The notes under the pieces: model-generated
What the model saw: the letters and a program-made list of their open reading frames with translations, nothing else
The model's database searches: none
What the model was told of the DNA's origin: nothing
Shown here: in pieces, positions 2 through 12,247 of the stretch
How the letters are laid out: each line of letters begins with the position of its first letter
How positions within the stretch are numbered: the stretch's first letter is position 1
Translations under genes and position numbers: made by a program
Assembly: GCA_947585665.1 (NCBI GenBank)
Contig: CANPXE010000008.1
Coordinates: 11,294 to 75,293 of the forward strand
Reading direction: 5' to 3'
Source: an uncultured Bacilli bacterium
Lineage (GTDB): Bacteria > Bacillota_I > Bacilli_A > RF39 > UBA660
Length of the DNA stretch: 64,000 bases

Positions 2-3000
2 AATTTAGACGAACTTCCTGAAAATACAAGAGAAATATATGCTAAATGGCAATCATCTCTTTCAGAAGCACAAAAACAGGCTTATAGAAAGTGGTATGAA
101 CAGATTTGGATAAAATTTTTAAATGAGACAAAGGCATATGGATCAGTTTATTCACACATACCAAAAGAAGCAATTACTGCTGAAATTAATAGATATTGTA
201 TTGATATTAATTTTAGATCTATTGAACTAATGCCATTACCAAAAACACAAGAACAAGTGCAAGAATATCAACAATTACTTATTTATGCTTTAGGAAAAAC
301 ACCTACAATTGACTATAAAGATGATGGGATAACTTATAAGTATGGTGATATGGATATTTTAGAAAATATTCCAAATGAATATATTAATGAAGAAGTTATA
401 AGAGCAGCTATTGAAAAAAGTATAGTTTATTTAGCTTATGCTGATCCTAATGCCGACAACTTTAAAGAATTAGTTGATATAGCATTTAAAAGAAAATTGG
501 CGAGTATTGGTAGAACGGAATTAACTGTTAAAGAACATGAGTTAATTAGGAAATTTGCTATTAACAATGCCGAATTATTTAAAACACTACAATTAGAGAT
601 ATTAGATCCTAAAATAACTGGTGTTATCAGTGAATCTAGTTTAGAAAGAATAATAAGATATACTGATGTTCAACGTTTAGTTTTAAATATTGCTAACGAT
701 GAAGCAGCATTAAAAACATTTGGATTTGCATTAGAAAATCTAAAAATGGATAATATCTTTATAGAACCATTAATTGAGAAATTAAGTCAATCTATTTCTT
801 CTCAAAAAACATATGCAGGGTATAATGCTGAAGAAAAAAAGGAGATATATAGGTCTACATTTTTAGATTTAGTTTCACAAAGAATAGATAGAAAAGATGT
901 GCCATTTACTGATTATGAAAAGGCCATTATTTCCTATTTAGCACTTAATCCACAAGAAGGAAGAAAAATAACAAGTTATGATGATATTTTAACTTTTGTT
1001 GAAAGAAAAAATAGTGAATTAGAAAGCATAGTTAATAATAAAGATTCCACGTTATTAGAAGTTAAAAATGCCTATTTAGAGCGATTGATTGGCTTAAATT
1101 ATGAAACTGTTGCTAACTTAGTGACTATGTATGGAAATGATCCAGAACAATTATTACAAAGCTACAAAAATATTAGTCCTGAATCATTTAAAGAACTTAG
1201 TGAAAAAGAAGCACTTGAAATAATTATAAAATTAAAATCTATTATTGAAACACAAGATATAGATGCCATTAGAAGTGAATTCTTTAAAGCTATCAGTCAA
1301 GAGAAAAAAGAAGAATCATTTTTACGTTATCAAAAATCAACCCTCTTAGAGACTTCATTAAGAAGAGCTTATGGTCGAGATATGGTTAGATCATTATCAA
1401 AAAATACGGATTCTTTACAAACACAAGAATTGGAGTTTGAGGGGGAAAAATATCTTGTAAGAAAAGTAAGTGGAGAATTTTATAGGATGGTTAGTTTATT
1501 AGGCGCATATCGTAAATCAACAACTACTGAAGGTGATATGTATGATAGATGGAATACCAGTAAAATGGCTAGTAACCATGCATTATGTTATAGTTTAATA
1601 AATCAATCTAATCCTGGTACAGCAATGATTAATGATAAAAAGGGTGTCATTATATCAATAAGTGGTTTCAGCCCGGAATCTATATCAGCAGAAGCCCCTT
1701 ATGATTTACGTTCTAATAATAGAAGAAATACAATATTTACTTATCGTCAACAACGTTTCTTTTCTGCTAAAAATATGCCAAATCAAATAAGAGGCAATTA
1801 TTCGGAATATGATATTGAAATTCAAGATGTTTTATCTGAAAGTGATAAATATCAAAAAATTCAACCAGCTACTATAATTTGTTTCGAAGAAGTTGATGAA
1901 GATAGTATTAGAGCCGCTATCGAACTTGGTAAAAAGTTGGGACATCCGGTTCCTATTGAAGTTATTGATAGAAGAGAACTAGCAAGAACAGAAATGGTAC
2001 ATATTATAGAAGCATTAAATAAATTTAAAACTGGCGAAACTATTGATCCTACTTTAGTTGGTGAAATTATTACAAGGTTTATTAATGTTAGAAATGCTCA
2101 TAAATTTTCTAATTTATCAGATGAATTAATAGGCGAAAATGCAGGAAAAGAGAATAAAGATGCACCATTTAATATTGATCATTTAAATAAAATTTTAAAA
2201 GAATGTCTTGCTTCAATTGAACAAAGAATTCGTAATGGACAAGTCGAAGAAGGTTTACAAGCTCTTGAAAGTATAAAAACGATGATTTTTGAGGAAAGAC
2301 AAAAAGCATACTTAATGCCAACAATGTATGAAAAGCAACTATGGATTGGAATTGATACGGATATAGATTATACTTTAGATGAACTACAAAGAACTTATGG
2401 AAAAATAAGTGTTAAACCATTAGAAAAAATTAAAACTTTAGAAATGTTATCACAAATACAAGGACAAGGTTTATCATCAATTACATTTAAAGTAGAAAGA
2501 AAAACTTATATGCCAGAACAATTATCAGTAGATCAAATTATGGAAATAATAGATGTAACAAAAATACAAGAAGGTATTGCTGAAGTACATTCACAAGGAT
2601 TTTATCAAGGTAATAAATCATATGATGAAGAACATATTGCACGAGTAATTTTATATAGTGATGCAATATCTAGAATGGAAGGTTTTGATGACAAAACTAG
2701 AATGTTGTTAATAGAGGCTGCAAAATATTATTCTTGTGGAAGACAATTAGATATTTTAGAAAAGCACGGTCAATATAGTGCAAAATTAGCTGGTAAAGCT
2801 TTAGCGGGTAAGTATTCAGCACAAGATCTTGGTGTAATTCAAGCAACAATTGAATTACAAAATTTTGAATTAACTTATTCGGGATCATTAGATTTTGAAG
2901 AGGAAAAGAAAGAAAAAATTAAGGAATTGTGTAGCAAATATGGTATTTCTGAAGAACAAGCAATTATTATAAATAAAATGGCTAGTTGCATCAGTGATTC

Positions 3001-3580
3001 TATAAAACTTGATCGAACAAGATTTATTGATAAAGCAAATGACAAAACAATAGCAAAATCATTTTATTTTGAAAGTTTGGAATTAGAATCTTCAAAGAAA
3101 ATGATAGAATTTAGTTATTTAATACAAGAACAATTAGCTCAACAGGAATTGGACATATTATTAAGTAGCGTTCAAATTGATTTTGATAAAGAAAAAGAAC
3201 AAATAATGAGTGATTTCTTTACTGAATACCATTTTGGAGGAAGAATTGATATAAAAACTAAAGATGAATCAATTACCAAGTCACCAATTGTAAGACTAGA
3301 ATATTTAAAAACAAAACATCCCGAAATTGTTAGAACAAGTTCTAATTTTTTATCAGAAAAAAAACAAAATAAAGAAGAATTAATAGAAAGGGAAAAAACT
3401 CCTGAAAAATTACAATTAGATGATGTCCAAAGACAAAATTTAATAAGGCAACGAATTGAAACACGAATTTCTGAATTAGGAATACAAACAAGTTCGTCTT
3501 TATCATCTGGTAATTCGTTTGAGCAACATGAATCAGGTCAAGAGATAGAGACAGAAACACATCATGATATAAAAATGTAA
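2..3580 (+). CDS. large hypothetical protein (more than 1190 aa), 5' end outside window
   Basis: Frame 2 is open from base 2 directly into the tracked ORF 230..3580, so the Met at 230 is internal and the true start lies upstream of the window. The protein is helical and E/K/I/L-rich. The segment EEHIARVILYSDAISRMEGFDDKTRMLLIEAAKYYSCGRQ follows the HD-domain pattern (H..RV ... AA..HD.GR), but HD is replaced by YS. No P-loop was seen. Confidence 0.7.
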   Translation, partial: NLDELPENTREIYAKWQSSLSEAQKQAYRKWYEQIWIKFLNETKAYGSVYSHIPKEAITAEINRYCIDINFRSIELMPLPKTQEQVQEYQQLLIYALGKTPTIDYKDDGITYKYGDMDILENIPNEYINEEVIRAAIEKSIVYLAYADPNADNFKELVDIAFKRKLASIGRTELTVKEHELIRKFAINNAELFKTLQLEILDPKITGVISESSLERIIRYTDVQRLVLNIANDEAALKTFGFALENLKMDNIFIEPLIEKLSQSISSQKTYAGYNAEEKKEIYRSTFLDLVSQRIDRKDVPFTDYEKAIISYLALNPQEGRKITSYDDILTFVERKNSELESIVNNKDSTLLEVKNAYLERLIGLNYETVANLVTMYGNDPEQLLQSYKNISPESFKELSEKEALEIIIKLKSIIETQDIDAIRSEFFKAISQEKKEESFLRYQKSTLLETSLRRAYGRDMVRSLSKNTDSLQTQELEFEGEKYLVRKVSGEFYRMVSLLGAYRKSTTTEGDMYDRWNTSKMASNHALCYSLINQSNPGTAMINDKKGVIISISGFSPESISAEAPYDLRSNNRRNTIFTYRQQRFFSAKNMPNQIRGNYSEYDIEIQDVLSESDKYQKIQPATIICFEEVDEDSIRAAIELGKKLGHPVPIEVIDRRELARTEMVHIIEALNKFKTGETIDPTLVGEIITRFINVRNAHKFSNLSDELIGENAGKENKDAPFNIDHLNKILKECLASIEQRIRNGQVEEGLQALESIKTMIFEERQKAYLMPTMYEKQLWIGIDTDIDYTLDELQRTYGKISVKPLEKIKTLEMLSQIQGQGLSSITFKVERKTYMPEQLSVDQIMEIIDVTKIQEGIAEVHSQGFYQGNKSYDEEHIARVILYSDAISRMEGFDDKTRMLLIEAAKYYSCGRQLDILEKHGQYSAKLAGKALAGKYSAQDLGVIQATIELQNFELTYSGSLDFEEEKKEKIKELCSKYGISEEQAIIINKMASCISDSIKLDRTRFIDKANDKTIAKSFYFESLELESSKKMIEFSYLIQEQLAQQELDILLSSVQIDFDKEKEQIMSDFFTEYHFGGRIDIKTKDESITKSPIVRLEYLKTKHPEIVRTSSNFLSEKKQNKEELIEREKTPEKLQLDDVQRQNLIRQRIETRISELGIQTSSSLSSGNSFEQHESGQEIETETHHDIKM

Positions 3581-3623
3581 TTTTACATATTATTTTCATA
3601 CTATTACAAGAATGCTACTGAAC

Positions 3624-3660
3624 AAAAAAAGAACTATCAATTAGATAGTTCTTTACTTTT
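3624..3660. terminator. bidirectional hairpin terminator, copy 1 of a repeated element
   Basis: The sequence is AAAAAAAGAACTATCAATTAGATAGTTCTTTACTTTT: a perfect stem with an A-tract on one side and a T-tract on the other, lying between convergent genes. Confidence 0.6.
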
Positions 3661-3703
3661 AAATAATACTACTAAATATAATTGAACTTAAATATAAAAA
3701 TTT

Positions 3704-4402
3704 TTAAGAATTTAGTATCCATTCAATAATTGCTTTTTTAATTTCATAGTATTCTTCTTCTTCAAACTGCATATTGGCAATACAAAATCTTTTAGAAGCA
3801 ATGTGGGAACAAAATATACACTCGTATAGATTGTAACAGTCTTGAATGAATAGGGAATTACTAACTTTGTTAGAACAAATGACGTTATAACTATTACTAC
3901 AGTCTTTGGAATCATCACATCTTATACAAAAATTACAAGTACCAGATCTTTGAGAAGCTAATAGAAATTCACTATTACCACAAGAATCACAATAAATTAA
4001 ATTTTTAGAATCACTACAATCAGTACAACGATAAATATTTTCAGAGCGATAAATAGTATCGCTTTTTATAACGTTTAATGAGTCATAAACTCTTTCCGTT
4101 GTCGTTAAATTAATACTCTTCCAAATAGTAATTAGTTCTTGTAAGTCATTTATATCTGTTTTGGGTAGCATCCAGCCTGTCGTTTCATCACGTTTTTCCA
4201 TATTTTGGTTAGTTATGAACTTTTCACTACTTATAGAATTGGCCCATGTTACTTCATTAGTAGTTGAGTCATATACTTGTTTTGGTAATTTGACATCAAA
4301 AGCAAACTTTTCAAGAAGAGTGTCCAAATCAAAAGAATTATTTTTATCAAAAACACTTTTAAATATTTTATTTACTATTTCTAATGCTTTATTATCATTC
4401 AT
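3704..4402 (-). CDS. Cys-rich hypothetical protein (CxxC-rich C-terminal module)
   Basis: The ATG overlaps the upstream stop (TAATG) and follows the SD AAGGTGGTGA. The C-terminal ~100 aa hold at least 14 Cys, including CTDC-x9-CDSC and CNFCIRC, with a roughly 12-residue periodicity. I recognise no family. Confidence 0.75.
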   Translation of the reverse strand: MNDNKALEIVNKIFKSVFDKNNSFDLDTLLEKFAFDVKLPKQVYDSTTNEVTWANSISSEKFITNQNMEKRDETTGWMLPKTDINDLQELITIWKSINLTTTERVYDSLNVIKSDTIYRSENIYRCTDCSDSKNLIYCDSCGNSEFLLASQRSGTCNFCIRCDDSKDCSNSYNVICSNKVSNSLFIQDCYNLYECIFCSHIASKRFCIANMQFEEEEYYEIKKAIIEWILNS

Positions 4403-6252
4403 TATCTCACCACCTTCATACTTGTTGAATTAGTAACTAATATTTCATGTAAATCAATATCGGTATTTAATTTAAAGTTGTGTTTCTTGGGTTCCATTTT
4501 CTTTTCCTCTTTACTTTCTATTGGCGTTTCTTTTTTAACTCTTGGAATACTTGTATAATCAATTGTTCTTCCTTTAAAAGCTGGTAATAGAATACCATTT
4601 TCATCTATTCTAGCAATGCATTCACGATTATTTAATTCTGTTAACATTTTAATTTTTCTTTCACGAGTATCATCTAGCGGTATTTTCATATTAAAATTAT
4701 CAACTAAGATGTTGGCATCTAGTTTAGATACTCTAAAAATAAAGTAATTGATGACATTTGCAAAAATAGCATTTTTTAATTCTTCTGATATTTGACTAAA
4801 ATATTGACTTGCTAGAACAAGAGATAAGTTATATTTTCTAGCTTCTGAAAGATATCTTGAAAGAATTGGATTTTCCACAACAGCAACTTCATCAATGATA
4901 AAAATTATATGTTCATCAATTTCTCTTTTTTGCACGATCGTTAAAAGTTGTTGCATGATAAGTCCAGCAATTGTTTTAGTAACTTTATCACCAAGTTTAG
5001 TTCTATCAAGTGAAAATAAAGTTAAAAAGTTATTGTCAATCGTTTTCTTTAAATTGTCCATTTCCATACTGGAACTAAAGACAGGAAGCATTTCCATTTC
5101 ATCAATAAAAGCAATAATAGGGGAAATAGCTTCATTATAAGATTTAGTTTTTAAGTCATTAAAGTCTGATAAAAAGAAATCAATGACACTAATTGGTAAC
5201 TTATCTTTTAGTTTTTTAATTAAGTCATTACGATATTCTAATTCTAAAATTAATTTTCGCAATGTTTTAAAACTAAATGATTCATCAGTTAATAAAATAT
5301 GAATAGAGTGTCTTAATACTCTTTCCAATTTAGAATTGTATTGATCAGCAATCAAAGATTTTAATAGGTCTAATAATAATTCTGTTGCGGAAACGATGTC
5401 ATCACTCTTATTAATGAATAAGTCGATACTATCTAAATTAGTTCTAAAATCAATTACTTTGCCAATCCCACCAATATCATTTTCTAGGGAAGCATGCGGA
5501 TCAATTACAACAACTTTATATTGATCTTTAAAGTCATTATTCTTAGATATGTTATTAATTAAAGAACTGATAAATTTTGATTTTCCACAACCAGATGATC
5601 CAATAATAATGGAATGTTTATCAAAACTAAAACTATTTTGTTTTAGATAAAAATTACCCTGTAAATAAGGAAATGTATCAATTTCTAACAAAGAATTATT
5701 TAAATCAGTGCTCAATAGATGAAGTATTTTATTTATATCTAAATATTTTGGCGCCGTTTTATAAAAGTATCTTTTATTTCCTTCAAAATCAACTGATAAA
5801 AGATTAGTTGGAATAGGAAGAATAATGCGATATTTTTTTATTACTCCATTTTTATTTAAATAGAAATATACTTTAGATTTAATCTTATCTTCATATAATT
5901 TACGAAAATTAATTTCGACAATTCTGAGGGCCCCTTTATTCTTAATTTCGCTATAATTGATTAAATCAATAATACTACTACCAATTTTAGGTAATGATAG
6001 GTATGCATAATTGATTTTTGGTAAGTTTATATCATCAACCTTTTTTAATAAAAAAGAATTTAAATTATTAATAGTTGTTGGCAAATTATATTTTGATTTA
6101 ATAAAATATCTTATTTGATTTTTATCATTGACAATTATTAATTTCCAATTTTTAAGAACACCACAATAAGTAGATATTGTTCTAATGAACTCTAACCATT
6201 CTTCTTTACTGACAAACTTTTTTGTCAAATAAATTTCTTGAAACAACCCCAT
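4402..6252 (-). CDS. FtsK/HerA-superfamily P-loop ATPase (DUF87/HerA-like)
   Basis: Motifs seen are Walker A GSSGCGKSKF, Walker B HIIFIIDEVAVV, and ARKYNLSLVLASQYFSQIS, which resembles the HerA/VirD4 post-Walker-B segment. I prefer the ATG at 6252 (SD GAGGTGA 5 nt upstream) over the tracked GTG at 6261. About 210 aa at the N-terminus are of unknown type. Confidence 0.75.
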   Translation of the reverse strand: MGLFQEIYLTKKFVSKEEWLEFIRTISTYCGVLKNWKLIIVNDKNQIRYFIKSKYNLPTTINNLNSFLLKKVDDINLPKINYAYLSLPKIGSSIIDLINYSEIKNKGALRIVEINFRKLYEDKIKSKVYFYLNKNGVIKKYRIILPIPTNLLSVDFEGNKRYFYKTAPKYLDINKILHLLSTDLNNSLLEIDTFPYLQGNFYLKQNSFSFDKHSIIIGSSGCGKSKFISSLINNISKNNDFKDQYKVVVIDPHASLENDIGGIGKVIDFRTNLDSIDLFINKSDDIVSATELLLDLLKSLIADQYNSKLERVLRHSIHILLTDESFSFKTLRKLILELEYRNDLIKKLKDKLPISVIDFFLSDFNDLKTKSYNEAISPIIAFIDEMEMLPVFSSSMEMDNLKKTIDNNFLTLFSLDRTKLGDKVTKTIAGLIMQQLLTIVQKREIDEHIIFIIDEVAVVENPILSRYLSEARKYNLSLVLASQYFSQISEELKNAIFANVINYFIFRVSKLDANILVDNFNMKIPLDDTRERKIKMLTELNNRECIARIDENGILLPAFKGRTIDYTSIPRVKKETPIESKEEKKMEPKKHNFKLNTDIDLHEILVTNSTSMKVVR

Positions 6253-6326
6253 ATCTTTCACCTCGCGATAAAGTATATCAAAAAAGGCAAATAAAAAACT
6301 GACTTTTTAATAATCAGTTTTGTCAG

Positions 6327-7121
6327 TTAATAGATGGCAACTAAAAAATCAGTTATATCATCGTGATAGTATTCTAATTCCGGTATTTCTTTTAAATTAT
6401 ATTTACAAGATGGTAAAAATTCATTATAAAAGCGATGAGATATATCTTGAATATCTTCCGGACTTTCAGAATTAATACGAAAACGTAGCCATTTACTCTT
6501 AGGAATAGTAATTTGCTCAAAGTCTTTTCCTGGTTTATCAAATAGACAATAATATTTTTGACTTTCTTCATGCCCGATGTCATAAGTAATCATTCCATAC
6601 TTTACAGGACCATATTCAGAAACGTATTTTTTAATTACTTTTTGAAAGAAGATAGGAGCTTCTTGTCCAATTTTTTCATTACTTGTTTCAAAACCAATAC
6701 CATATAGTTTTAATTCATCAAGTTCAATTATTTCATAATCTAGTTCAGTTGTTATTGCAATATCTTCATTAAATACTATTCTTGGGAAGTTTTTAAGTTT
6801 TGTTTCCTTAGTGACAAGACTAGGTTTAATACCATGAAATTTCTCAAAGGCTCTTGAAAAAGAGGTAGCATTATCATATTGGTACTTAATGGCGATGTCC
6901 ATTATTTTTTCTTTGTTTTCATATAAGTCGTAACCAGCATTAGATAGTCTTCTTTTACGAATATATTCAGAGATAGAAAGCCCAGCAATCATCGTAAATA
7001 GTCTTTGCATTGTATAGACATTAACACCAATAAAGTGTGCTAAAACGTTGTAGTCTATTTCTTCTTCTAAATTATCATCAATATATTTAGTTATATCATT
7101 TAGACATTTATATATATTCAA
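6327..7121 (-). CDS. AraC-family transcriptional regulator with GyrI-like effector domain
   Basis: The N-terminal AraC HTH includes ISEYIRKRRLSNAGYDL and YDNATSFSRAFEKFHGIKPS. The C-terminal ~150 aa resemble a GyrI-like small-molecule-binding fold. The start is TTG, preceded by AGGTGATG. Confidence 0.8.
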   Translation of the reverse strand: MNIYKCLNDITKYIDDNLEEEIDYNVLAHFIGVNVYTMQRLFTMIAGLSISEYIRKRRLSNAGYDLYENKEKIMDIAIKYQYDNATSFSRAFEKFHGIKPSLVTKETKLKNFPRIVFNEDIAITTELDYEIIELDELKLYGIGFETSNEKIGQEAPIFFQKVIKKYVSEYGPVKYGMITYDIGHEESQKYYCLFDKPGKDFEQITIPKSKWLRFRINSESPEDIQDISHRFYNEFLPSCKYNLKEIPELEYYHDDITDFLVAIY

Positions 7122-7208
7122 AGGACATCACCTATATATATTCTATCATATAACATTGACTAGCATAAAATAAAAATCTATAATAATTTATTGAAAAGAG
7201 GCGACTTT

Positions 7209-7862
7209 ATGTCAAAAGAACAAAATGTCATAAGTTATTATGTAATATGCAATAGATTAAAAGATATTATTAGAACCGGTTGGAAAAATTGGAATGTTCA
7301 AAGAGAAAGAGTTGAGAGTGTTGCTGAACATATTTTTGGTGTTCAAATGTTAGCAATTGCCATGAAATCAGAGTATGAATATGATGTAGATATTATGAAA
7401 GTAGTGTATATGCTTGCTATTCATGAAATTGGTGAAGCTGTTATTGGTGATTTAACGCAATTTCAAATATCAAAAGAAGAAAAAGAAAAAATTGAACATG
7501 AAGCAGTACATAAAATATTAGGTGACCTATTAGATGGTGACAAAATTGAAGAATTATTTTTAGAATTTGATTCTCATAATACAAAAGAATCAATATTTGC
7601 TTATCAATGTGATAAATTAGAATGCGATTTACAATGTAAGTTATATGATGAAGAAGGGTGCGTTGATATTCAAAAACAAGAGATTGATAATCCAATAAAA
7701 AATGCAAGAGTTCAAGAATTACTCAAAACAGGTTCTTCTTGGTCAACGATGTGGATTAAATTCGGTCAACAAACTTACCCATATGATAAAAATTTTAAAA
7801 CTATTTCAAATTATGCTCTTAATAATGAAATAGGCAAAGTTAAGAATAAGCACCTTGATTAA
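7209..7862 (+). CDS. HD-domain 5'-deoxynucleotidase (YfbR/HDDC2-like)
   Basis: RERVESVAEHIFGVQMLAIAM and LAIHEIGEAVIGDLT match the YfbR-type HD motifs. The ATG at 7209 follows AAGAGG, so the tracked TTG at 7191 is unlikely. Confidence 0.75.
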   Translation: MSKEQNVISYYVICNRLKDIIRTGWKNWNVQRERVESVAEHIFGVQMLAIAMKSEYEYDVDIMKVVYMLAIHEIGEAVIGDLTQFQISKEEKEKIEHEAVHKILGDLLDGDKIEELFLEFDSHNTKESIFAYQCDKLECDLQCKLYDEEGCVDIQKQEIDNPIKNARVQELLKTGSSWSTMWIKFGQQTYPYDKNFKTISNYALNNEIGKVKNKHLD

Positions 7863-8104: not shown

Positions 8105-8869
8105 ATGGGAAAATTATATCATGGAAGCTTAGAAAGAGGAATTACAAGACTAGAACCTCATAAATCAACACATGGTAAGTATGTTTATGCTACACCATAT
8201 AAAGAATTAGCAATTATTTTTTCAGGAAGATGTGGAGATGATTGTACTTATGCTTTATATAGATATAACAATGATGAAATATGGCAATTGGTAGAAAGAA
8301 TACCAGAAGCATTTAACACAATGTTTAGTAATAGTTCATCAATTTATACTTTAGATGATGCAACATTTAAAGATATACACACTGGTTTCGCAGAAGTTGT
8401 TTCAGAAGTTGGTGTTAATACTGAAAGTGAAGAATTTATTGAAAATGTTTATGATAATATTAAAAGACTAGCAAATGAAGGTAAAATTAAGTTATATATA
8501 TATCCAAATAAACCTAAAGAAATACCACAGGATAGTTCTGATTTAATTGATAAACAAATTAAACAAAATCAAAGAGATAATAATCCTATCACTAAGAAGT
8601 CTTTTGAAAGAATTGTATTATTACATCCGTATTTAATAGATAAAGTTAATCAAAAAATGATTGAATTAGGGTTGGATGTTGAACCATATCAAAAAGATGA
8701 TTTAATCAATTTGTTTTCTAATGCGGTGATTATGCAAGATACCAATCCAAATAATGAACAATATTTAAAATCTATACTTATTTCTATTTCAAATACTTAT
8801 CCTGAATTATTACCTATTTTAAATAAGGAGTATAAATCTAAAGAAGGAAAGAAACACATTAATAGTTGA
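8105..8869 (+). CDS. hypothetical protein with N-terminal LYHGS / YVYAT motifs (possible ADP-ribosyltransferase-like fold)
   Basis: The SD GAGGA lies 7 nt upstream. The N-terminus MGKLYHGSLERGITRLEP...GKYVYATPY resembles the H-G-[ST] plus aromatic-x-[ST] motifs of H-Y-E ART folds and DUF3990-type proteins. This is a recollection-level similarity only. Confidence 0.6.
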   Translation: MGKLYHGSLERGITRLEPHKSTHGKYVYATPYKELAIIFSGRCGDDCTYALYRYNNDEIWQLVERIPEAFNTMFSNSSSIYTLDDATFKDIHTGFAEVVSEVGVNTESEEFIENVYDNIKRLANEGKIKLYIYPNKPKEIPQDSSDLIDKQIKQNQRDNNPITKKSFERIVLLHPYLIDKVNQKMIELGLDVEPYQKDDLINLFSNAVIMQDTNPNNEQYLKSILISISNTYPELLPILNKEYKSKEGKKHINS

Positions 8870-9006: not shown

Positions 9007-9372
9007 TTATTTATTTTTAATTTTTATTTTACTAATTGTATAATTAAAGTTTTGACAGAACTTCATCATTTCTTCGTCTGAAATGCCACTATCTAGCAAA
9101 TTATTGAAATAATCTTTGTATTGACTTTCATTAACGTCTTTTTGTAAAGATATTAAATATAAACATGCTTCAGTAGATGTGTCAAATGATTTAGCAGAAT
9201 AAAAGCCTCTTCTTTCATCAGTTTTCCATACTATCCATTTACCATTTTCTGTTTTAAAAATACATTTATAATATGATGATCTTCCACTTCCTAATAGGGT
9301 ATCTTTAGCAAAATCATATTTTTTTCCAGTTTCGCAATAAGAATGAATTGCAATTATTTCTTTTTTTGTCAA
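9007..9372 (-). CDS. hypothetical protein, possibly the 3' part of a frameshifted gene
   Basis: The only available start is TTG, with no SD. An upstream 41-codon ORF (ATG at 9494) would fuse in frame if the A7 run at 9397..9403 were A8. Confidence 0.45.
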   Translation of the reverse strand: MTKKEIIAIHSYCETGKKYDFAKDTLLGSGRSSYYKCIFKTENGKWIVWKTDERRGFYSAKSFDTSTEACLYLISLQKDVNESQYKDYFNNLLDSGISDEEMMKFCQNFNYTISKIKIKNK

Positions 9373-9757: not shown

Positions 9758-10675
9758 TTATAATTTTTTTAAAATATAAACATAATAAGTATTATTTATA
9801 ATAGTGTAGTAGTTATTCTGATAATTAAAGATATTTATATTATTATTTATGGCTATATTAACTAAATCTTTTAAATTATTTAAATATATAATATTCTTAC
9901 TATTTATATTAGGTTTATTTTGAATAGCTATAATTATATCTTGATATTCTTTTAAAATAACTTCTTCATTATTCTTACTGAATAAAGTTTTACTTACTAT
10001 GAGAATAATAACTATAACGATAAAATCAAAAACTAACATTTCATTAAGACCAATATCTTGTGTATTATTTTCTAAAAAAGTATTATCTTCTTTCATCGTT
10101 ATTTCGATAACATTTTCATTAATAGGAATTGTTAATAAAACATAGGGATTAGTTTGGTCATTAATTTTGATATTAAGCTTAACGTATAAATAAGTTTCTG
10201 TCTTAATATTATAGTATTCTTGAAAAGTTTTAACATAATTGACATAATATTGATAATCTAAATTATAATTTTCTTTTATACTAATTTCTTTTTGCTTTAT
10301 ATTATTTATCTTTTTTAAATTAAAATTCTTAGTCCAAATTAATTTAGTACCATTATCAGCATAGCTTTTTAGAGTAGCTGTAATATCATAAGAATAATTA
10401 ATGTTTTCTTTTGTTTTATTTTTTAAATAGTAATTAAAATAGATATCAATAGTTTTAATAGAATTTGCAATATAATAATTATTAGCTTCTATTTTATTAT
10501 TAAAAAAATAATTATTAGGTTTTAAAGTAACTTCATAATATGTTTTATTCTTTGATTCATATATATTATTATTTTGAATATTTTTACTAAAATATATTAT
10601 CTCTAATAAAAGAATTCCTATTATAATAATACTTAAAATAATTAGTATTTTTATTTTTTTTCTCTTTTTCTGCAT
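9758..10675 (-). CDS. bitopic membrane protein, DUF5305-like partner of SipW-type peptidases
   Basis: The ATG at 10675 lies 8 nt after AAGGAG, which overlaps the upstream stop. The protein has an N-terminal TM, an N/Y/K-rich ~190-aa ectodomain, a second TM (FDFIVIVIILIV) and a ~80-aa tail. The family name is from memory of annotated neighbourhoods. Confidence 0.6.
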   Translation of the reverse strand: MQKKRKKIKILIILSIIIIGILLLEIIYFSKNIQNNNIYESKNKTYYEVTLKPNNYFFNNKIEANNYYIANSIKTIDIYFNYYLKNKTKENINYSYDITATLKSYADNGTKLIWTKNFNLKKINNIKQKEISIKENYNLDYQYYVNYVKTFQEYYNIKTETYLYVKLNIKINDQTNPYVLLTIPINENVIEITMKEDNTFLENNTQDIGLNEMLVFDFIVIVIILIVSKTLFSKNNEEVILKEYQDIIIAIQNKPNINSKNIIYLNNLKDLVNIAINNNINIFNYQNNYYTIINNTYYVYILKKL

Positions 10676-10677
10676 AT

Positions 10678-11769
10678 TCAATTCTCCTTATTAAAAAGCT
10701 CATTTAACCAAATAGAAGGATAGCCTAAATATTTTATATGGAATTGATAAACACCTTTTATATCTTCTTTTTTAATTTTTATATAATCTATGGTATTATT
10801 AGCATCTCCTTTGGTAATATAGTATTCATTTATACTTACAATACGATGAACAATAATTTGATTTTCATATTTAAAAACAATAATATCTCCTGGGAAAATA
10901 TTTTCTTCTCTTTTATAAATGACAACGTCGCCCTTTCTAAAAATAGGATTCATACTATTGGATAGAATGGCTATAGGTTGATAATTAAATACTCCAAGCA
11001 TAAATAGTACTAATAGAATAGAAGTAATAATAGTTAAAGGATAAAGCATTGTAAAGTTTTTGAAATGATATATATTTTTTTTATTAAAAATAAAATATTT
11101 AAACAAATAGTAAATAATTATAACTTTAATAATAGCAAAAGAACCTTCAATAAACCAATTACTATAAGGAATAATTGGTAAAAAGAGTTCAGGTAATTCA
11201 TTAAAAATTCTAATAATAATAGAAACATTATAATGGGAATTTAAAGATAGATATGTAAATAAAATATTTTGCGCGATAATTGGTATAACTATAGAAATTA
11301 AATAATGTAAAAAAGTAATATTATGAGAAAGAAATAAAGCATTAAAATTAATCTCATTCATGATAATAATTATGGTTATTAAAGTCATAATTACAAAATT
11401 GTTTTTATTACTTTTAATAAGTTTATAACGCATTATTTCAATACCACATATAGGTAAGATAATTTTCCACAAACTTTTAAAAGTATAAACTACTGTATGA
11501 TCATAAGGATTCTTATTAAAGCCAACAATAAAACCACTAACTAAATAAAGTATTAAAAAAATAATGGATATAGTTAAAGTGATATTAACTTCTTTTCTAT
11601 TAAGTAACTTTAAATCCTGATGATAAAAAATTATCAAAAAGCATAACCAAAATATTGGATTAAGAAAATAAATATAAAAATTATTATTATATAAAAAGAT
11701 ATGACTTAGTGTATAAAGGATTAAAAGAAAAAATAATTTCTTTCTTTTAAGAATTTTCTTTTTGAACAT
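10678..11769 (-). CDS. polytopic membrane domain fused to SipW-type (ER/archaeal-type) S26 signal peptidase I
   Basis: The C-terminal ~110 aa read ILSNSMNPIFRKGDVV...IIVHRIV...TKGDANN, giving the Ser box, His box and GDxN of SipW-like peptidases. About 250 aa with about 8 hydrophobic helices precede this core. The gene overlaps the upstream gene by 23 nt. Confidence 0.8.
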   Translation of the reverse strand: MFKKKILKRKKLFFLLILYTLSHIFLYNNNFYIYFLNPIFWLCFLIIFYHQDLKLLNRKEVNITLTISIIFLILYLVSGFIVGFNKNPYDHTVVYTFKSLWKIILPICGIEIMRYKLIKSNKNNFVIMTLITIIIIMNEINFNALFLSHNITFLHYLISIVIPIIAQNILFTYLSLNSHYNVSIIIRIFNELPELFLPIIPYSNWFIEGSFAIIKVIIIYYLFKYFIFNKKNIYHFKNFTMLYPLTIITSILLVLFMLGVFNYQPIAILSNSMNPIFRKGDVVIYKREENIFPGDIIVFKYENQIIVHRIVSINEYYITKGDANNTIDYIKIKKEDIKGVYQFHIKYLGYPSIWLNELFNKEN

Positions 11770-12247
11770 ATTGAATTATTCCAACTAACGTTTTTGTTTT
11801 GACACTGGGAATACTTTCGGTATCTTTAACATAGGTTACCATAATATTGAAAGTGGTTGAGTCACCGGCATTTAAGTCTTTCTTAAGTTCCGAAGTAGTA
11901 TAATTAATTTCTTCAATACCATCAATTTCTTCAGTAAATATTATAGTTTGTAATTCAGCATCAATAGTTCCTAAATTTTGTATGGTTACTTCATAAATAA
12001 TTTCATCGCCTGGTTTATTAAGCTTAGCTGAAAAATTAATAGAATCATTAGTGAAAGTAGGTATTCCAGCATCACAGCCATCTGGAACTTGAGTAGCTTT
12101 TATATTTGTTATTCTAACATCCCACTCACCAGTAATTTCTGTAGTTCCATTAATAGTAAAATCTGTAGCAAATGTTGAATAACCAATGGCCATTAAAATA
12201 ATAGTTGCAAGAAAGGCTATAAGAATTATTATTTTATTTTTATGCAA
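11747..12247 (-). CDS. small secreted protein with SipW-cognate-type signal peptide (TasA/BsaA-like candidate substrate)
   Basis: The TTG start lies 5 nt after AGGAGGGAG. The N-terminus is MHKNKIIILIAFLATIILMAIGYSTFATDFT, and the rest is a beta-rich domain with an Ig/CARDB-style motif, PGDEIIYEVTIQNLGTIDAEL. Confidence 0.65.
   Translation of the reverse strand: MHKNKIIILIAFLATIILMAIGYSTFATDFTINGTTEITGEWDVRITNIKATQVPDGCDAGIPTFTNDSINFSAKLNKPGDEIIYEVTIQNLGTIDAELQTIIFTEEIDGIEEINYTTSELKKDLNAGDSTTFNIMVTYVKDTESIPSVKTKTLVGIIQYVQKENS

What the first reader, a model, noticed from the sequence alone, without database searches (positions are those of the whole stretch)
3704..6252. Translationally coupled FtsK/HerA-like ATPase and Cys-rich protein pair (candidate conflict or defence module)
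A 616-aa P-loop NTPase carries Walker A GSSGCGKS, Walker B IIFIIDE and a HerA/VirD4-like ARKYNLSLVLASQ segment, with an unassigned 210-aa N-domain. Its stop overlaps (TAATG) the start of a 232-aa protein. The C-terminal ~100 aa of that partner contain at least 14 cysteines in CxxC-type pairs with a roughly 12-residue periodicity. HerA-like ATPases usually work with a partner effector, such as NurA, or Sir2 or DUF4297 in anti-phage systems. Here the partner has no nuclease or Sir2 motif that I can see. The pair sits alone in an accessory region between a giant orphan ORF and an AraC regulator, with no integrase, relaxase or T4SS genes nearby.
Basis: partly seen in the sequence, partly recalled or inferred. 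Interest (0 to 1): 0.7.

Follow-up and report, generated by a model that had tools for sequence, protein, structure and literature searches.

The report
Conserved motor ATPase with beta-solenoid partner
The two overlapping genes are real and belong to an undescribed module, a DNA-pump-like ATPase plus a new beta-solenoid protein, that is kept together in reduced-genome gut Bacilli, Patescibacteria and one DPANN archaeal locus; it looks more like conserved cell machinery than an anti-phage system, and its function is still unknown.

Summary
On the minus strand, a 616-aa FtsK/HerA-superfamily ATPase (4402-6252) overlaps by one base (TAATG) a 232-aa partner (3704-4402). The partner has 13 cysteines, not 14 or more.

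- **Partner fold.** With a deep alignment AlphaFold gives pLDDT 93.5: an N-terminal alpha/beta domain, a hexad-repeat beta-solenoid and a C-terminal helix. It has no Pfam, NCBIfam or PADLOC family and no significant structural neighbour.
- **Cysteines.** Most occupy positions that are Ser, Ile or Val in relatives, so they are solenoid residues rather than CxxC metal knuckles. Only C198 and C207 are conserved family-wide.
- **Linkage.** In every bacterial locus with upstream DNA, and in one of three archaeal loci, the ATPase lies directly upstream. This covers 311 matches in species-representative gut Bacilli genomes, Saccharibacteria (48% and 40% identity), other Patescibacteria and a Micrarchaeota locus.
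- **Against defence.** No phage, plasmid or viral copies, no effector domain, and the partner is more conserved than flanking genes.
- **Against strictly core.** One cultured saccharibacterium lacks the pair at the syntenic site.

The DNA-handling mechanism is inferred, not shown.

The parts
4402..6252 (-). 616-aa soluble, basic (pI 9.0) FtsK/HerA-superfamily P-loop ATPase of the TrwB_AAD_bind/DUF87 type. Stop codon TAA is at 4402-4404.
   Evidence: ORF. Pfam PF10412 at 33.9 bits (cut-off 20.5) and PF01935 at 29.7 bits (cut-off 23.2). No TM segment, maximum Kyte-Doolittle(19) 1.25. Homologues over the full length. Invariant motifs across phyla.
5623..6252 (-). Family-specific N-terminal domain of the ATPase (residues 1-210), with no known family.
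   Evidence: No Pfam, NCBIfam or PADLOC hit starts before residue 176. Full-length alignments start at residue 6 for Saccharibacteria (40% identity) and Daviesbacteria (35%) and at residues 2-3 for Micrarchaeota and the GC-46% lineage.
5578..5601 (-). Walker A motif GSSGCGKS (residues 218-225).
   Evidence: G218, S220, G221, G223, K224 and S225 are invariant in alignment A3.
5488..5508 (-). VIDPHAS motif (residues 249-255), the I-D-P-H strand after Walker A.
   Evidence: I250, D251, P252 and H253 are invariant in A3. That this motif is typical of HerA/DUF87-type ATPases is my own knowledge.
4888..4908 (-). Walker B motif IIFIIDE (residues 449-455).
   Evidence: D454 and E455 are invariant in A3.
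4804..4842 (-). ARKYNLSLVLASQ segment (residues 471-483), a candidate arginine-finger and sensor region.
   Evidence: R472, K473 and Q483 are invariant in A3. The functional assignment is by analogy with HerA/FtsK and is inferred.
3704..4402 (-). 232-aa acidic (pI 4.7) partner protein. Its ATG at 4400-4402 overlaps the ATPase stop by one base (TAATG).
   Evidence: 1062 homologue clusters and 541 representatives at 50% identity. AlphaFold2 pLDDT 93.5 and pTM 0.86 with a 55-sequence alignment.
4103..4402 (-). Partner N-terminal alpha/beta domain (residues 1-100). Proposed docking domain (inferred).
   Evidence: Secondary structure. The conserved FAFD..LP..V.D..T.E.TW signature is retained in distant relatives.
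3767..4090 (-). Hexad-repeat beta-solenoid (residues 105-212): 4-residue strands joined by 2-residue turns, with Ser or Cys at every sixth position. It contains all 13 cysteines.
   Evidence: DSSP string. Column composition. Cysteine positions. Best Foldseek matches are left-handed beta-helix proteins, but E>1e-3 and TM<=0.23.
3749..3838 (-). Family signature at the solenoid cap and helix start (residues 189-218): C-x5-C-x2-C-x-H-x6-C-I-A-N-M-Q-F-x3-E-Y. A possible single metal site (C195, C198, H200, C207).
   Evidence: N210 is invariant; C198, C207, F197, I208 and Y218 are at least 90% conserved across 55 diverse sequences. In the 42-sequence alignment C195 is in 32 sequences and H200 in 24. 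Metal binding is not tested.
3710..3760 (-). C-terminal alpha-helix of the partner (residues 215-231).
6327..7121 (-). 264-aa AraC-type HTH plus GyrI-like/Cass2 effector-binding regulator, co-conserved with the pair.
   Evidence: Pfam HTH_18, Cass2 and GyrI-like. Directly upstream in 63 of 79 related loci and one gene further away in 6 more. The same architecture sits upstream of the pair in an unrelated GC-46% lineage.
6289..6327 (-). Near-invariant inverted repeat ACTGAC-N18-GTCAGT followed by a T-run, immediately after the AraC stop codon. Candidate araC terminator and/or operator.
   Evidence: Sequence. Conserved in 63 species loci, more than the flanking proteins. RNA fold -8.1 kcal/mol, z = -2.5. 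No Rfam match.
6258..6280 (-). Candidate extended -10 promoter TGaTATACT (6272-6280) and Shine-Dalgarno GAGGTGA (6258-6264) of the ATPase-partner operon.
   Evidence: Read, where both are conserved across species. Function is inferred; the consensus scan did not list this site because it requires a -35 hexamer.
3628..3654 (.). Bidirectional terminator-like hairpin (11-bp stem) between the partner gene and the convergent 1116-aa ORF.
   Evidence: both strands; T-run on the minus strand. Sequence.

Best explanation
This is a member of an undescribed, widely distributed two-gene machine.

**Motor.** A soluble, basic FtsK/HerA-superfamily ATPase. It is presumed to form a hexameric ring like its relatives and carries a family-specific 210-aa N-domain.

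**Partner.** The motor is made together with, and probably binds stoichiometrically to, an acidic 232-aa non-enzymatic partner. The partner has an N-terminal alpha/beta domain, a rigid ~110-residue hexad-repeat beta-solenoid and a C-terminal helix.

**Cysteines.** At most one conserved Cys/His site caps it.

**Regulation.** In the window's clade the operon is probably controlled by the upstream AraC/GyrI-like small-molecule sensor through a near-invariant promoter region.

**Proposed mechanism (inferred).** After induction by a xenobiotic or stress ligand, the ring uses ATP to move along or pump nucleic acid, most likely DNA. The solenoid partner, docked on the N-domains, acts as the adaptor or clamp that selects or holds the substrate. 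The precedent is NurA, Sir2 or DUF4297 sitting on HerA, but here the partner has no catalytic domain.

**What is shown and what is inferred.** Shown: the anatomy, the coupling, the co-conservation, the distribution and the absence from mobile-element collections. Inferred: complex formation, the substrate and the regulatory link.
For: - Gene structure and motifs.
- Superfamily membership: Pfam hits above cut-off. Walker A, IDPH, Walker B and RK...Q are invariant from Bacilli to Micrarchaeota.
- Partner fold: pLDDT 93.5, with no significant structural neighbour and no family.
- Cysteines are Ser, Ile or Val in relatives.
- Tight linkage: the ATPase is directly upstream in 89 of 90 loci, with the stop-to-start distance between -11 and +5 nt in the 86 Bacilli loci. 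The same holds in Saccharibacteria, Daviesbacteria, other Patescibacteria and Micrarchaeota.
- Cross-phylum identity of 48% (partner) and 40% (ATPase) to Saccharibacteria.
- The partner is more conserved than the flanking genes of the same genome pairs, 78.6% against 56.9%, n = 529.
- The AraC/GyrI-like gene is co-conserved and the control region is near-invariant.
- Basic ATPase (pI 9.0), acidic partner (pI 4.7), no TM segment.
- No copies in phage, plasmid or IMG/VR collections.
Against: - No experiment or complex model supports a physical interaction or a DNA substrate.
- The ATPase matches known DNA motors only around the P-loop and Walker B regions.
- The solenoid is not strongly charged (mean net charge about -2), so it is neither an obvious DNA binder nor a DNA mimic.
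- Some archaeal loci carry tandem partner paralogues with no ATPase nearby, so the partner can act without this motor.
- Southlakia epibionticum ML1 lacks the pair at the syntenic site, so it is dispensable in at least one saccharibacterium.
- In most Patescibacteria loci no regulator is attached.
Confidence: 0.4

Rival explanations
1. An anti-phage or anti-mobile-element defence system of the 'HerA-like ATPase plus effector' kind. The solenoid partner would be a new, non-canonical effector or sensor that the ATPase ring activates on infection.
For: - The closest ATPase matches are defence-associated: PADLOC mad8 at 2.7e-16 and several HerA models, and PDB antiphage HerA chains 8wiv, 8xau and 8j4u.
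- It is a two-gene, translationally coupled operon.
- The genes flanking the trio differ in almost every species.
- There is a presence/absence polymorphism in Saccharibacteria.
- 40-48% identity across phyla suggests horizontal spread.
- An integrase and a Rep gene lie next to the trio in L001.
Against: - The partner has no nuclease, Sir2, TIR, protease or pore-forming domain and no PADLOC hit.
- The ATPase similarity is confined to generic P-loop regions, with NCBIfam antiphage HerA scores of 19-27 bits against cut-offs of 800-850.
- 311 matches in species-representative genomes, and the partner is more conserved than neighbouring genes. That is the opposite of typical defence genes.
- Housekeeping neighbours in Patescibacteria.
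- No defence genes nearby in the window.
- Regulation by a small-molecule sensor is unusual for such systems (own knowledge).
Confidence: 0.2
2. A cytoplasmic coupling or adaptor unit for a type IV secretion, type IV pilus or DNA-uptake apparatus encoded elsewhere. The ATPase would be a TM-less T4CP-like receptor and the partner its substrate adaptor or chaperone.
For: - The best Pfam matches are TrwB_AAD_bind and TraG-D_C.
- Patescibacteria depend on T4SS and T4P (PMC12857230, PMC10633639).
- Pilin-like genes lie near the pair in L093.
- T4CPs are known to work with small adaptor proteins such as the DotL complex (PMC12857230).
Against: - No TM anchor.
- No VirB4, VirB6, relaxase or pilus-assembly genes are adjacent in about 100 loci.
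- The recognisable T4CP of Southlakia (SEML1_0293, 921 aa) is a different protein with no such partner, and that organism lacks the pair at the syntenic site.
Confidence: 0.15
3. A structural or cytoskeletal system. The beta-solenoid partner would polymerise or act as a scaffold, by analogy with bactofilin or with the MinC C-terminal beta-helix. The ATPase would assemble, remodel or position it.
For: - The partner has a rigid repeat solenoid with a terminal helix and a separate N-domain.
- Surface conservation is very high, as expected for a protein with large interaction surfaces.
- Tandem multi-domain paralogues without an ATPase occur in archaea.
- The comparison with bactofilin and MinC is from my own knowledge.
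Against: - Foldseek did not return bactofilin or MinC among the listed PDB matches.
- I know of no FtsK/HerA-type ATPase that remodels such polymers (own knowledge).
- Nothing in the neighbourhoods points to division or shape genes; ParAB next to the pair in L096 is divergent and also present where the pair is absent.
Confidence: 0.1
4. A metal or redox protein. The Cys-rich partner would bind Zn or Fe-S clusters, and the ATPase would serve as its metallochaperone or use it as a redox sensor.
For: - 13 Cys with four CxxC pairs.
- 11 of them are at least 90% conserved within the gut clade.
- The family-wide C-x2-C-x-H-x6-C motif at the solenoid cap.
Against: - Nine of the 13 Cys positions have a different majority residue in relatives (Ser, Ile, Val, or Trp at 176), and two more (C159, C168) are Cys in only about half.
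- Whole family members have 3-5 Cys.
- Median Cys count is 7 in the mostly Patescibacteria-type set against 13 here.
- The CxxC pairs fall on consecutive repeat positions of the solenoid rather than in knuckle loops.
- No zinc-ribbon or Fe-S family hit.
Confidence: 0.07

Closest known systems
HerA-partner modules (HerA-NurA end resection; Sir2-HerA and DUF4297-HerA anti-phage systems)
   Same: A FtsK/HerA-superfamily P-loop ATPase encoded in a tight operon with one dedicated partner. Walker A, IDPH, Walker B and RK..Q motifs are present. The best PDB sequence matches are antiphage HerA chains.
   Different: The partner is not NurA, Sir2 or DUF4297 and has no catalytic motif. NCBIfam HerA models score 19-27 bits against cut-offs of 800-850. 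The N-domain has no detectable relation to known domains. The distribution is core-like in one clade rather than island-like.
Type IV coupling proteins (TrwB/VirD4, Pfam TrwB_AAD_bind and TraG-D_C)
   Same: This is the best Pfam match, spanning the NTPase domain including the region between Walker A and B (residues 214-513).
   Different: No N-terminal TM anchor. No T4SS or relaxase genes in any neighbourhood. Not found on plasmids except for three remote partial hits.
MADS defence system, component mad8 (PADLOC PDLC04140)
   Same: The strongest defence-library hit for the ATPase core (2.7e-16, residues 214-499).
   Different: MADS is an eight-gene operon (bioRxiv 10.1101/2023.03.30.534895). 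None of the other seven genes is present here, and the partner has no PADLOC hit.
Hexapeptide-repeat left-handed beta-helix proteins (gamma-carbonic anhydrase, LpxD, GlmU) and the 12-residue beta-helix of Tenebrio antifreeze protein
   Same: A six-residue repeat of short strands and tight turns. These are the top Foldseek matches. The Tenebrio protein 1ezg appears in the profile search, with a similar Cys/Ser spacing.
   Different: None of the matches is significant: Foldseek E>=2.6e-3 with TM<=0.23, and 1ezg at E = 0.48. There is no Pfam Hexapep hit. The repeat register (small residue at i, aliphatic at i+3) differs from the canonical hexapeptide motif (the motif is own knowledge). The protein is cytoplasmic and paired with an ATPase.
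AraC/Rob-type regulators with a GyrI-like effector domain
   Same: The upstream gene has HTH_18 plus GyrI-like/Cass2 domains above their cut-offs. Such regulators sense small molecules (own knowledge).
   Different: The ligand and the operator are unknown. The association with an FtsK/HerA ATPase operon was not found in the literature searched.

Membership tests
FtsK/HerA superfamily of P-loop ATPases | Walker A (GxxGxGKS/T) and Walker B (hhhhDE) motifs | tested here: met
   GSSGCGKS at 218-225 and IIFIIDE at 449-455. Both are invariant across an 11-sequence alignment from four distant lineages.
FtsK/HerA superfamily of P-loop ATPases | Profile match above the curated threshold to a superfamily domain | tested here: met
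   PF10412 at 33.9 bits (cut-off 20.5), PF01935 at 29.7 (23.2) and PF12696 at 22.8 (22).
FtsK/HerA superfamily of P-loop ATPases | Conserved Arg (finger) and Gln after Walker B; hexameric ring | tested here: inconclusive
HerA proper (HerA-NurA or antiphage HerA) | Match to HerA equivalog models | tested here: not met
   NF042944 at 26.9 bits (cut-off 850) and NF042943 at 18.9 bits (cut-off 800). PDB HerA matches cover only about 60 residues around Walker A.
HerA proper (HerA-NurA or antiphage HerA) | N-terminal HAS-barrel domain | not tested
   The N-domain (1-210) has no sequence-family hit.
HerA proper (HerA-NurA or antiphage HerA) | Partner is NurA, Sir2, DUF4297 or another recognised effector | tested here: not met
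   The partner has no Pfam, NCBIfam or PADLOC hit and no significant fold match.
Type IV coupling protein (VirD4/TrwB) | N-terminal transmembrane anchor | tested here: not met
   Maximum Kyte-Doolittle(19) hydropathy is 1.25, so no TM-like segment.
Type IV coupling protein (VirD4/TrwB) | Encoded with T4SS (VirB4/VirB6) and/or relaxase genes | tested here: not met
   None in the window near the pair nor in about 100 related loci.
MADS defence system | Eight-gene mad1-mad8 operon | tested here: not met
   Only a mad8-like ATPase core hit. The neighbours are an AraC regulator, an HD protein and an orphan ORF.
CxxC zinc-ribbon or Fe-S cluster protein | Ligand cysteines conserved across the family | tested here: not met
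   Only C198 and C207 are at least 90% conserved. Positions 126, 138 and 156 are mostly Ser; 129, 141 and 162 are mostly Ile or Val. Some members have 3-5 Cys.
CxxC zinc-ribbon or Fe-S cluster protein | Bound metal | not testable with these tools
   Needs ICP-MS or spectroscopy. A single site formed by C195, C198, H200 and C207 remains possible.
Hexapeptide-repeat left-handed beta-helix (Pfam Hexapep) | Profile match and structural superposition on a left-handed beta-helix | tested here: not met
   No Hexapep hit at E<=0.1. These are the best Foldseek hits, but E>=2.6e-3, TM<=0.23 and rmsd about 10 A.
Phage- or plasmid-borne module | Presence on phage, plasmid or viral contigs | tested here: not met
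   tblastn against 50,697 phage and 72,556 plasmid records found nothing for the partner and only three remote partial ATPase hits. No relative in IMG/VR. The weak PHROG hits align in a shifting repeat register.

The most novel reading that the evidence does not exclude
The pair is a previously unrecognised class of FtsK/HerA motor with a new beta-solenoid fold as obligate co-factor. It is shared by bacteria and archaea with reduced genomes: Patescibacteria, DPANN and gut 'Tenericutes-like' Bacilli. In the gut clade it is switched on by a GyrI-like xenobiotic sensor. Its job would be a basic DNA transaction for which these organisms lack the standard machinery. Examples are clearing drug- or protein-DNA adducts, or processing imported DNA for repair or nucleotide salvage.
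Probability: 0.12. Interest if true: 0.8.

Novelty: new variant of a known kind. Interest (0 to 1): 0.6.

Why it matters
- Patescibacteria and DPANN archaea are rich in conserved proteins of unknown function.
- A two-gene ATP-driven machine is a concrete, testable piece of that dark matter. Between a gut Bacilli clade and Saccharibacteria it keeps 40-48% identity, and more distant relatives reach a DPANN archaeon.
- The partner defines a new protein family, and probably a new solenoid geometry.
- The gut Bacilli version comes with a ligand-sensing regulator and a near-invariant control region. That gives experimenters a handle: find the inducer and the function may follow.
- The case also warns against two shortcuts. 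'HerA-like ATPase plus unknown partner' does not automatically mean defence. A run of CxxC does not automatically mean a metal site.

Tried and rejected
1. AlphaFold2 of the partner with 24 close homologues failed (pLDDT 36). Only the 55-sequence alignment with distant relatives worked.
2. Foldseek against PDB and BFVD gave no match at E<=1e-3.
3. Profile and sequence searches of PDB: nothing significant for the partner, nothing for the single ATPase sequence, and only P-loop-region HerA hits for the ATPase profile.
4. Pfam on 20 distant relatives and apparent fusion proteins gave no informative domain. The apparent fusions (P0243, P0271) look like assembly or gene-call chimeras.
5. PHROG hits (phrog_15341, phrog_5156) could not be followed up. 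tblastn against phages was empty and the partner hit slides along the repeat.
6. DNA-mimic idea (pentapeptide-repeat-like): rejected, because the solenoid has a mean net charge of only about -2.
7. His-Me/HNH-like reading of the C-terminal beta-beta-alpha (H200, N210, E217): rejected as a general function, because H200 is Asn in a third of the family.
8. CedD and the Ced system: only a 28-bit similarity against a cut-off of 600, and CedD has a TM domain.
9. I looked for Tn-seq evidence in Southlakia epibionticum. The organism lacks the pair at the syntenic site, so there are no fitness data.
10. Literature searches for DUF87 with GyrI-like, and for DUF87 with Patescibacteria, returned nothing.
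11. The taxonomy of the GC-46% lineage (L089-L091) could not be established.
12. Rfam on 3400-7400 found nothing.

Full report
**1. The observation**

Both genes lie on the minus strand.

- The ATPase ORF runs 4402-6252. It is 616 aa from an ATG preceded by GAGGTGA. The alternative GTG at 6261 lies inside that Shine-Dalgarno sequence.
- Walker A GSSGCGKS (residues 218-225), Walker B IIFIIDE (449-455) and ARKYNLSLVLASQ (471-483) are all present.
- The stop TAA shares its last A with the ATG of the 232-aa partner (TAATG).
- The partner has 13 cysteines between residues 126 and 207, with four CxxC pairs.
- A bidirectional terminator-like hairpin at 3628-3654 closes the operon against the convergent 1116-aa orphan ORF.
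- The window is about 27% G+C. Its closest relative is a rabbit-gut 'uncultured Bacilli' MAG with 96-98% protein identity.

**2. What the two proteins are**

*The ATPase.*
- It passes the Pfam thresholds for TrwB_AAD_bind, DUF87 and, marginally, TraG-D_C.
- It scores far below the cut-offs of every NCBIfam equivalog, including antiphage HerA, CedD, TraD and EccC.
- It touches PADLOC only through generic ATPase-core models: mad8 at 2.7e-16 and HerA models.
- It has no TM segment and is basic, with pI 9.0.
- Its first 210 residues match nothing. They are nevertheless conserved over the full length in relatives from Saccharibacteria (40% identity), Daviesbacteria (35%), a GC-46% lineage and a Micrarchaeota archaeon.

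*The partner.*
- It has no Pfam, NCBIfam or PADLOC family.
- With 24 close homologues AlphaFold failed (pLDDT 36).
- With 55 sequences reaching 22% identity the best of five models had pLDDT 93.5 and pTM 0.86. The other four models ranged from 61 to 75.
- The best model shows an N-terminal alpha/beta domain (1-100), a run of 4-residue strands joined by 2-residue turns (105-212), and a C-terminal helix (215-231).
- Foldseek finds only left-handed beta-helix proteins, none significant (E>=2.6e-3, TM<=0.23).
- I read this as a beta-solenoid of undescribed geometry. I could not inspect coordinates.

**3. The cysteines**

- A 42-sequence alignment of about 240-aa family members shows Ser or Cys at every sixth position from about 108 to 195.
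- The window's C126, C138 and C156 are Ser in most relatives. C129, C141 and C162 are Ile or Val. C176 is Trp.
- Only C198 and C207 are at least 90% conserved. C195 is present in 32 of 42 sequences and H200 in 24 of 42.
- Family members carry between 3 and 35 Cys.
- The gut clade has a median of 13 Cys. The 119 best hits to a profile of distant relatives, whose few named members are all Patescibacteria, have a median of 7.
- So the 'CxxC pairs' are consecutive repeat positions of a solenoid that this anaerobic clade fills with Cys. At most one capping site (C195, C198, H200, C207) could be a conserved metal site.
- The solenoid is only weakly acidic (mean net charge about -2), which argues against DNA mimicry.

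**4. Co-conservation and distribution**

- The partner has 1062 clusters at 90% identity and 541 representatives at 50% identity.
- The scan of species-representative genomes returned 311 matches. All 80 listed are uncultured gut or rumen MAGs labelled Bacilli, Tenericutes, Mollicutes or Erysipelotrichaceae (a few carry other labels such as Muribaculaceae), including Candidatus Coprovivens, Candidatus Ventrenecus and CAG:582.
- In 89 of 90 loci with upstream DNA the ATPase is the adjacent gene. The stop-to-start distance is -11 to +5 nt in the 86 Bacilli loci.
- The AraC/GyrI-like gene is directly upstream in 63 of 79 loci and one gene removed in 6 more. Everything else around the trio differs from species to species.
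- Outside this clade the same ATPase-partner pair, with overlapping or abutting genes, occurs in:
  - Saccharibacteria (L096-98);
  - Daviesbacteria (L099);
  - other Patescibacteria (L093, where the ATPase is split; L101-104);
  - a GC-46% organism that again has an AraC/GyrI-like gene directly upstream (L089-91);
  - a Micrarchaeota contig, where the ATPase is followed by a two-domain 525-aa paralogue and two single-domain paralogues (L086).
- Two archaeal contigs carry tandem two-domain paralogues without an ATPase (L088 and L095).
- In Patescibacteria the neighbours are housekeeping genes: rplU, parAB, ileS, secDF, miaA, tpiA.

**5. Core or accessory?**

*Core-like evidence.*
- For 529 comparisons of genome pairs, the partner averages 78.6% identity, the ATPase 67.7% and the AraC gene 71.2%. 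Flanking genes shared by the same pairs average 56.9%.
- The partner is 48% identical between the gut Bacilli and Saccharibacteria.
- No copy exists in 50,697 phage records, 72,556 plasmid records or IMG/VR. The only exceptions are three remote partial ATPase hits on plasmids.

*Accessory-like evidence.*
- The cultured saccharibacterium Southlakia epibionticum ML1 has the same gene order as L096: VKOR, ileS, NTP-transferase, rplU, parA, parB, signal peptidase.
- In ML1 only 79 nt separate the NTP-transferase (SEML1_0181) from rplU (SEML1_0182). In L096-98 the pair sits at exactly that spot (PMC10633639 Table S1).
- So the pair is gained or lost within Saccharibacteria. The cross-phylum similarity may partly reflect transfer.

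**6. Regulation**

- The 74-nt spacer between the AraC stop and the ATPase ATG is almost invariant in 63 species, more so than the proteins on either side.
- It reads TAA-ACTGAC-N18-GTCAGT-T-run, then TGaTATACT (an extended -10), then GAGGTGA and the ATG.
- The inverted repeat folds weakly as RNA (-8.1 kcal/mol, z = -2.5) and matches no Rfam family.
- I take it as an araC terminator and/or an operator sitting at the -35 position of the operon promoter. This is inference.

**7. Mechanism**

What is established from the families:
- FtsK/HerA/VirD4-type ATPases are hexameric rings that translocate nucleic acid or, more rarely, protein (PMC12857230).
- HerA-type rings carry their partner on the N-terminal face (own knowledge).
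- GyrI-like domains bind small molecules (own knowledge).

From the anatomy I propose a ligand-induced, ATP-driven nucleic-acid-handling ring. Its family-specific N-domains would dock a non-catalytic solenoid adaptor. Confidence in this mechanism is about 0.4. The anatomy and the conservation are far more secure than that.

Rivals:
- a new HerA-type defence system (0.2);
- a TM-less coupling or adaptor unit for T4SS, T4P or DNA uptake (0.15);
- a scaffold or polymer system (0.1);
- a metal or redox protein (0.07).

**8. Comparison with known systems, and verdict**

- The pair works most like the HerA-partner modules. It fails their membership tests: the equivalog models, the partner identity, and the island-like distribution.
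- It fails the T4CP tests: no TM anchor and no T4SS context.
- It fails the MADS test: one of eight genes.
- Literature searches found no description of it.
- I therefore classify it as a new variant of a known kind, a superfamily ATPase plus dedicated partner, built around a new protein family.
The 'Cys-rich metal protein in a defence island' reading is largely not supported.
- Interest 0.6: a clean, widespread and experimentally tractable unknown, but without a demonstrated function.

Noticed in passing
window 6258-6327 (minus strand): The spacer between the AraC/GyrI gene and the ATPase is almost invariant at the DNA level in 63 species loci, more conserved than the flanking proteins. It holds ACTGAC-N18-GTCAGT plus a T-run, then an extended -10 (TGaTATACT) and the Shine-Dalgarno sequence. 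Two alternative hairpins are possible because ACTGA occurs twice.
   Followed up: partly
window 230-3580 (+): A 1116-aa ORF convergent with the operon has no Pfam, NCBIfam, PADLOC or PHROG hit. It has no counterpart in any of the ~90 related loci analysed (singleton cluster), and the exact sequence is not in the protein collection.
   Followed up: partly
window 9758-12247 (minus strand); also L009, L018, L041, L060: A three-gene cluster recurs within a few genes of the module in several related genomes. It comprises a DUF5305 membrane protein, a multi-TM signal-peptidase S26/S24-like protein and a small DUF7507-like secreted protein. It looks like a dedicated signal-peptidase and substrate set.
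   Followed up: no
L086 2545-7351; L088 2259-5445; L095 3900-7092: The archaeal (DPANN) versions of the partner are duplicated. They are ~525-540-aa proteins with two solenoid modules, often in tandem pairs. In L086 the order is ATPase, a two-domain paralogue, then two single-domain paralogues. In L088 and L095 no ATPase is adjacent. Cys content ranges from 3 to 35 per protein.
   Followed up: partly
L096-L098 4908-7699, compared with Southlakia epibionticum ML1 SEML1_0181/0182: In Saccharibacteria the pair sits between an NTP-transferase gene and rplU. The cultured strain ML1 has the same synteny but only a 79-nt gap there. This is a clean presence/absence polymorphism with no visible mobile-element scars in the gene tables.
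   Followed up: partly
L001 2923-5727: In one 1.03-Mb contig a tyrosine integrase and a Rep (REP_ORF2-G2P/RepSA-like) gene lie about 1.5 kb upstream of the AraC-ATPase-partner trio, so a small integrated element abuts the module.
   Followed up: no
L093 7285-8991 and L094 50-1756: In a Patescibacteria genome (GCA_026004435.1) the ATPase is called as two genes of 354 and 210 aa, 9 nt apart, in two independent assemblies. It is either a genuine split or a shared frameshift.
   Followed up: no
L089-L091 5268-8732: An unidentified GC-46% organism (449-kb contig) has the full AraC/GyrI, ATPase and partner trio, although its proteins are only 24-31% identical to the window's. Its taxonomy could not be established.
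   Followed up: partly
window 8105-8869 (+) and 9007-9372 (-): Two further ORFs (254 and 121 aa) beside the HD-domain gene have no family hit and no counterpart in the related loci.
   Followed up: no
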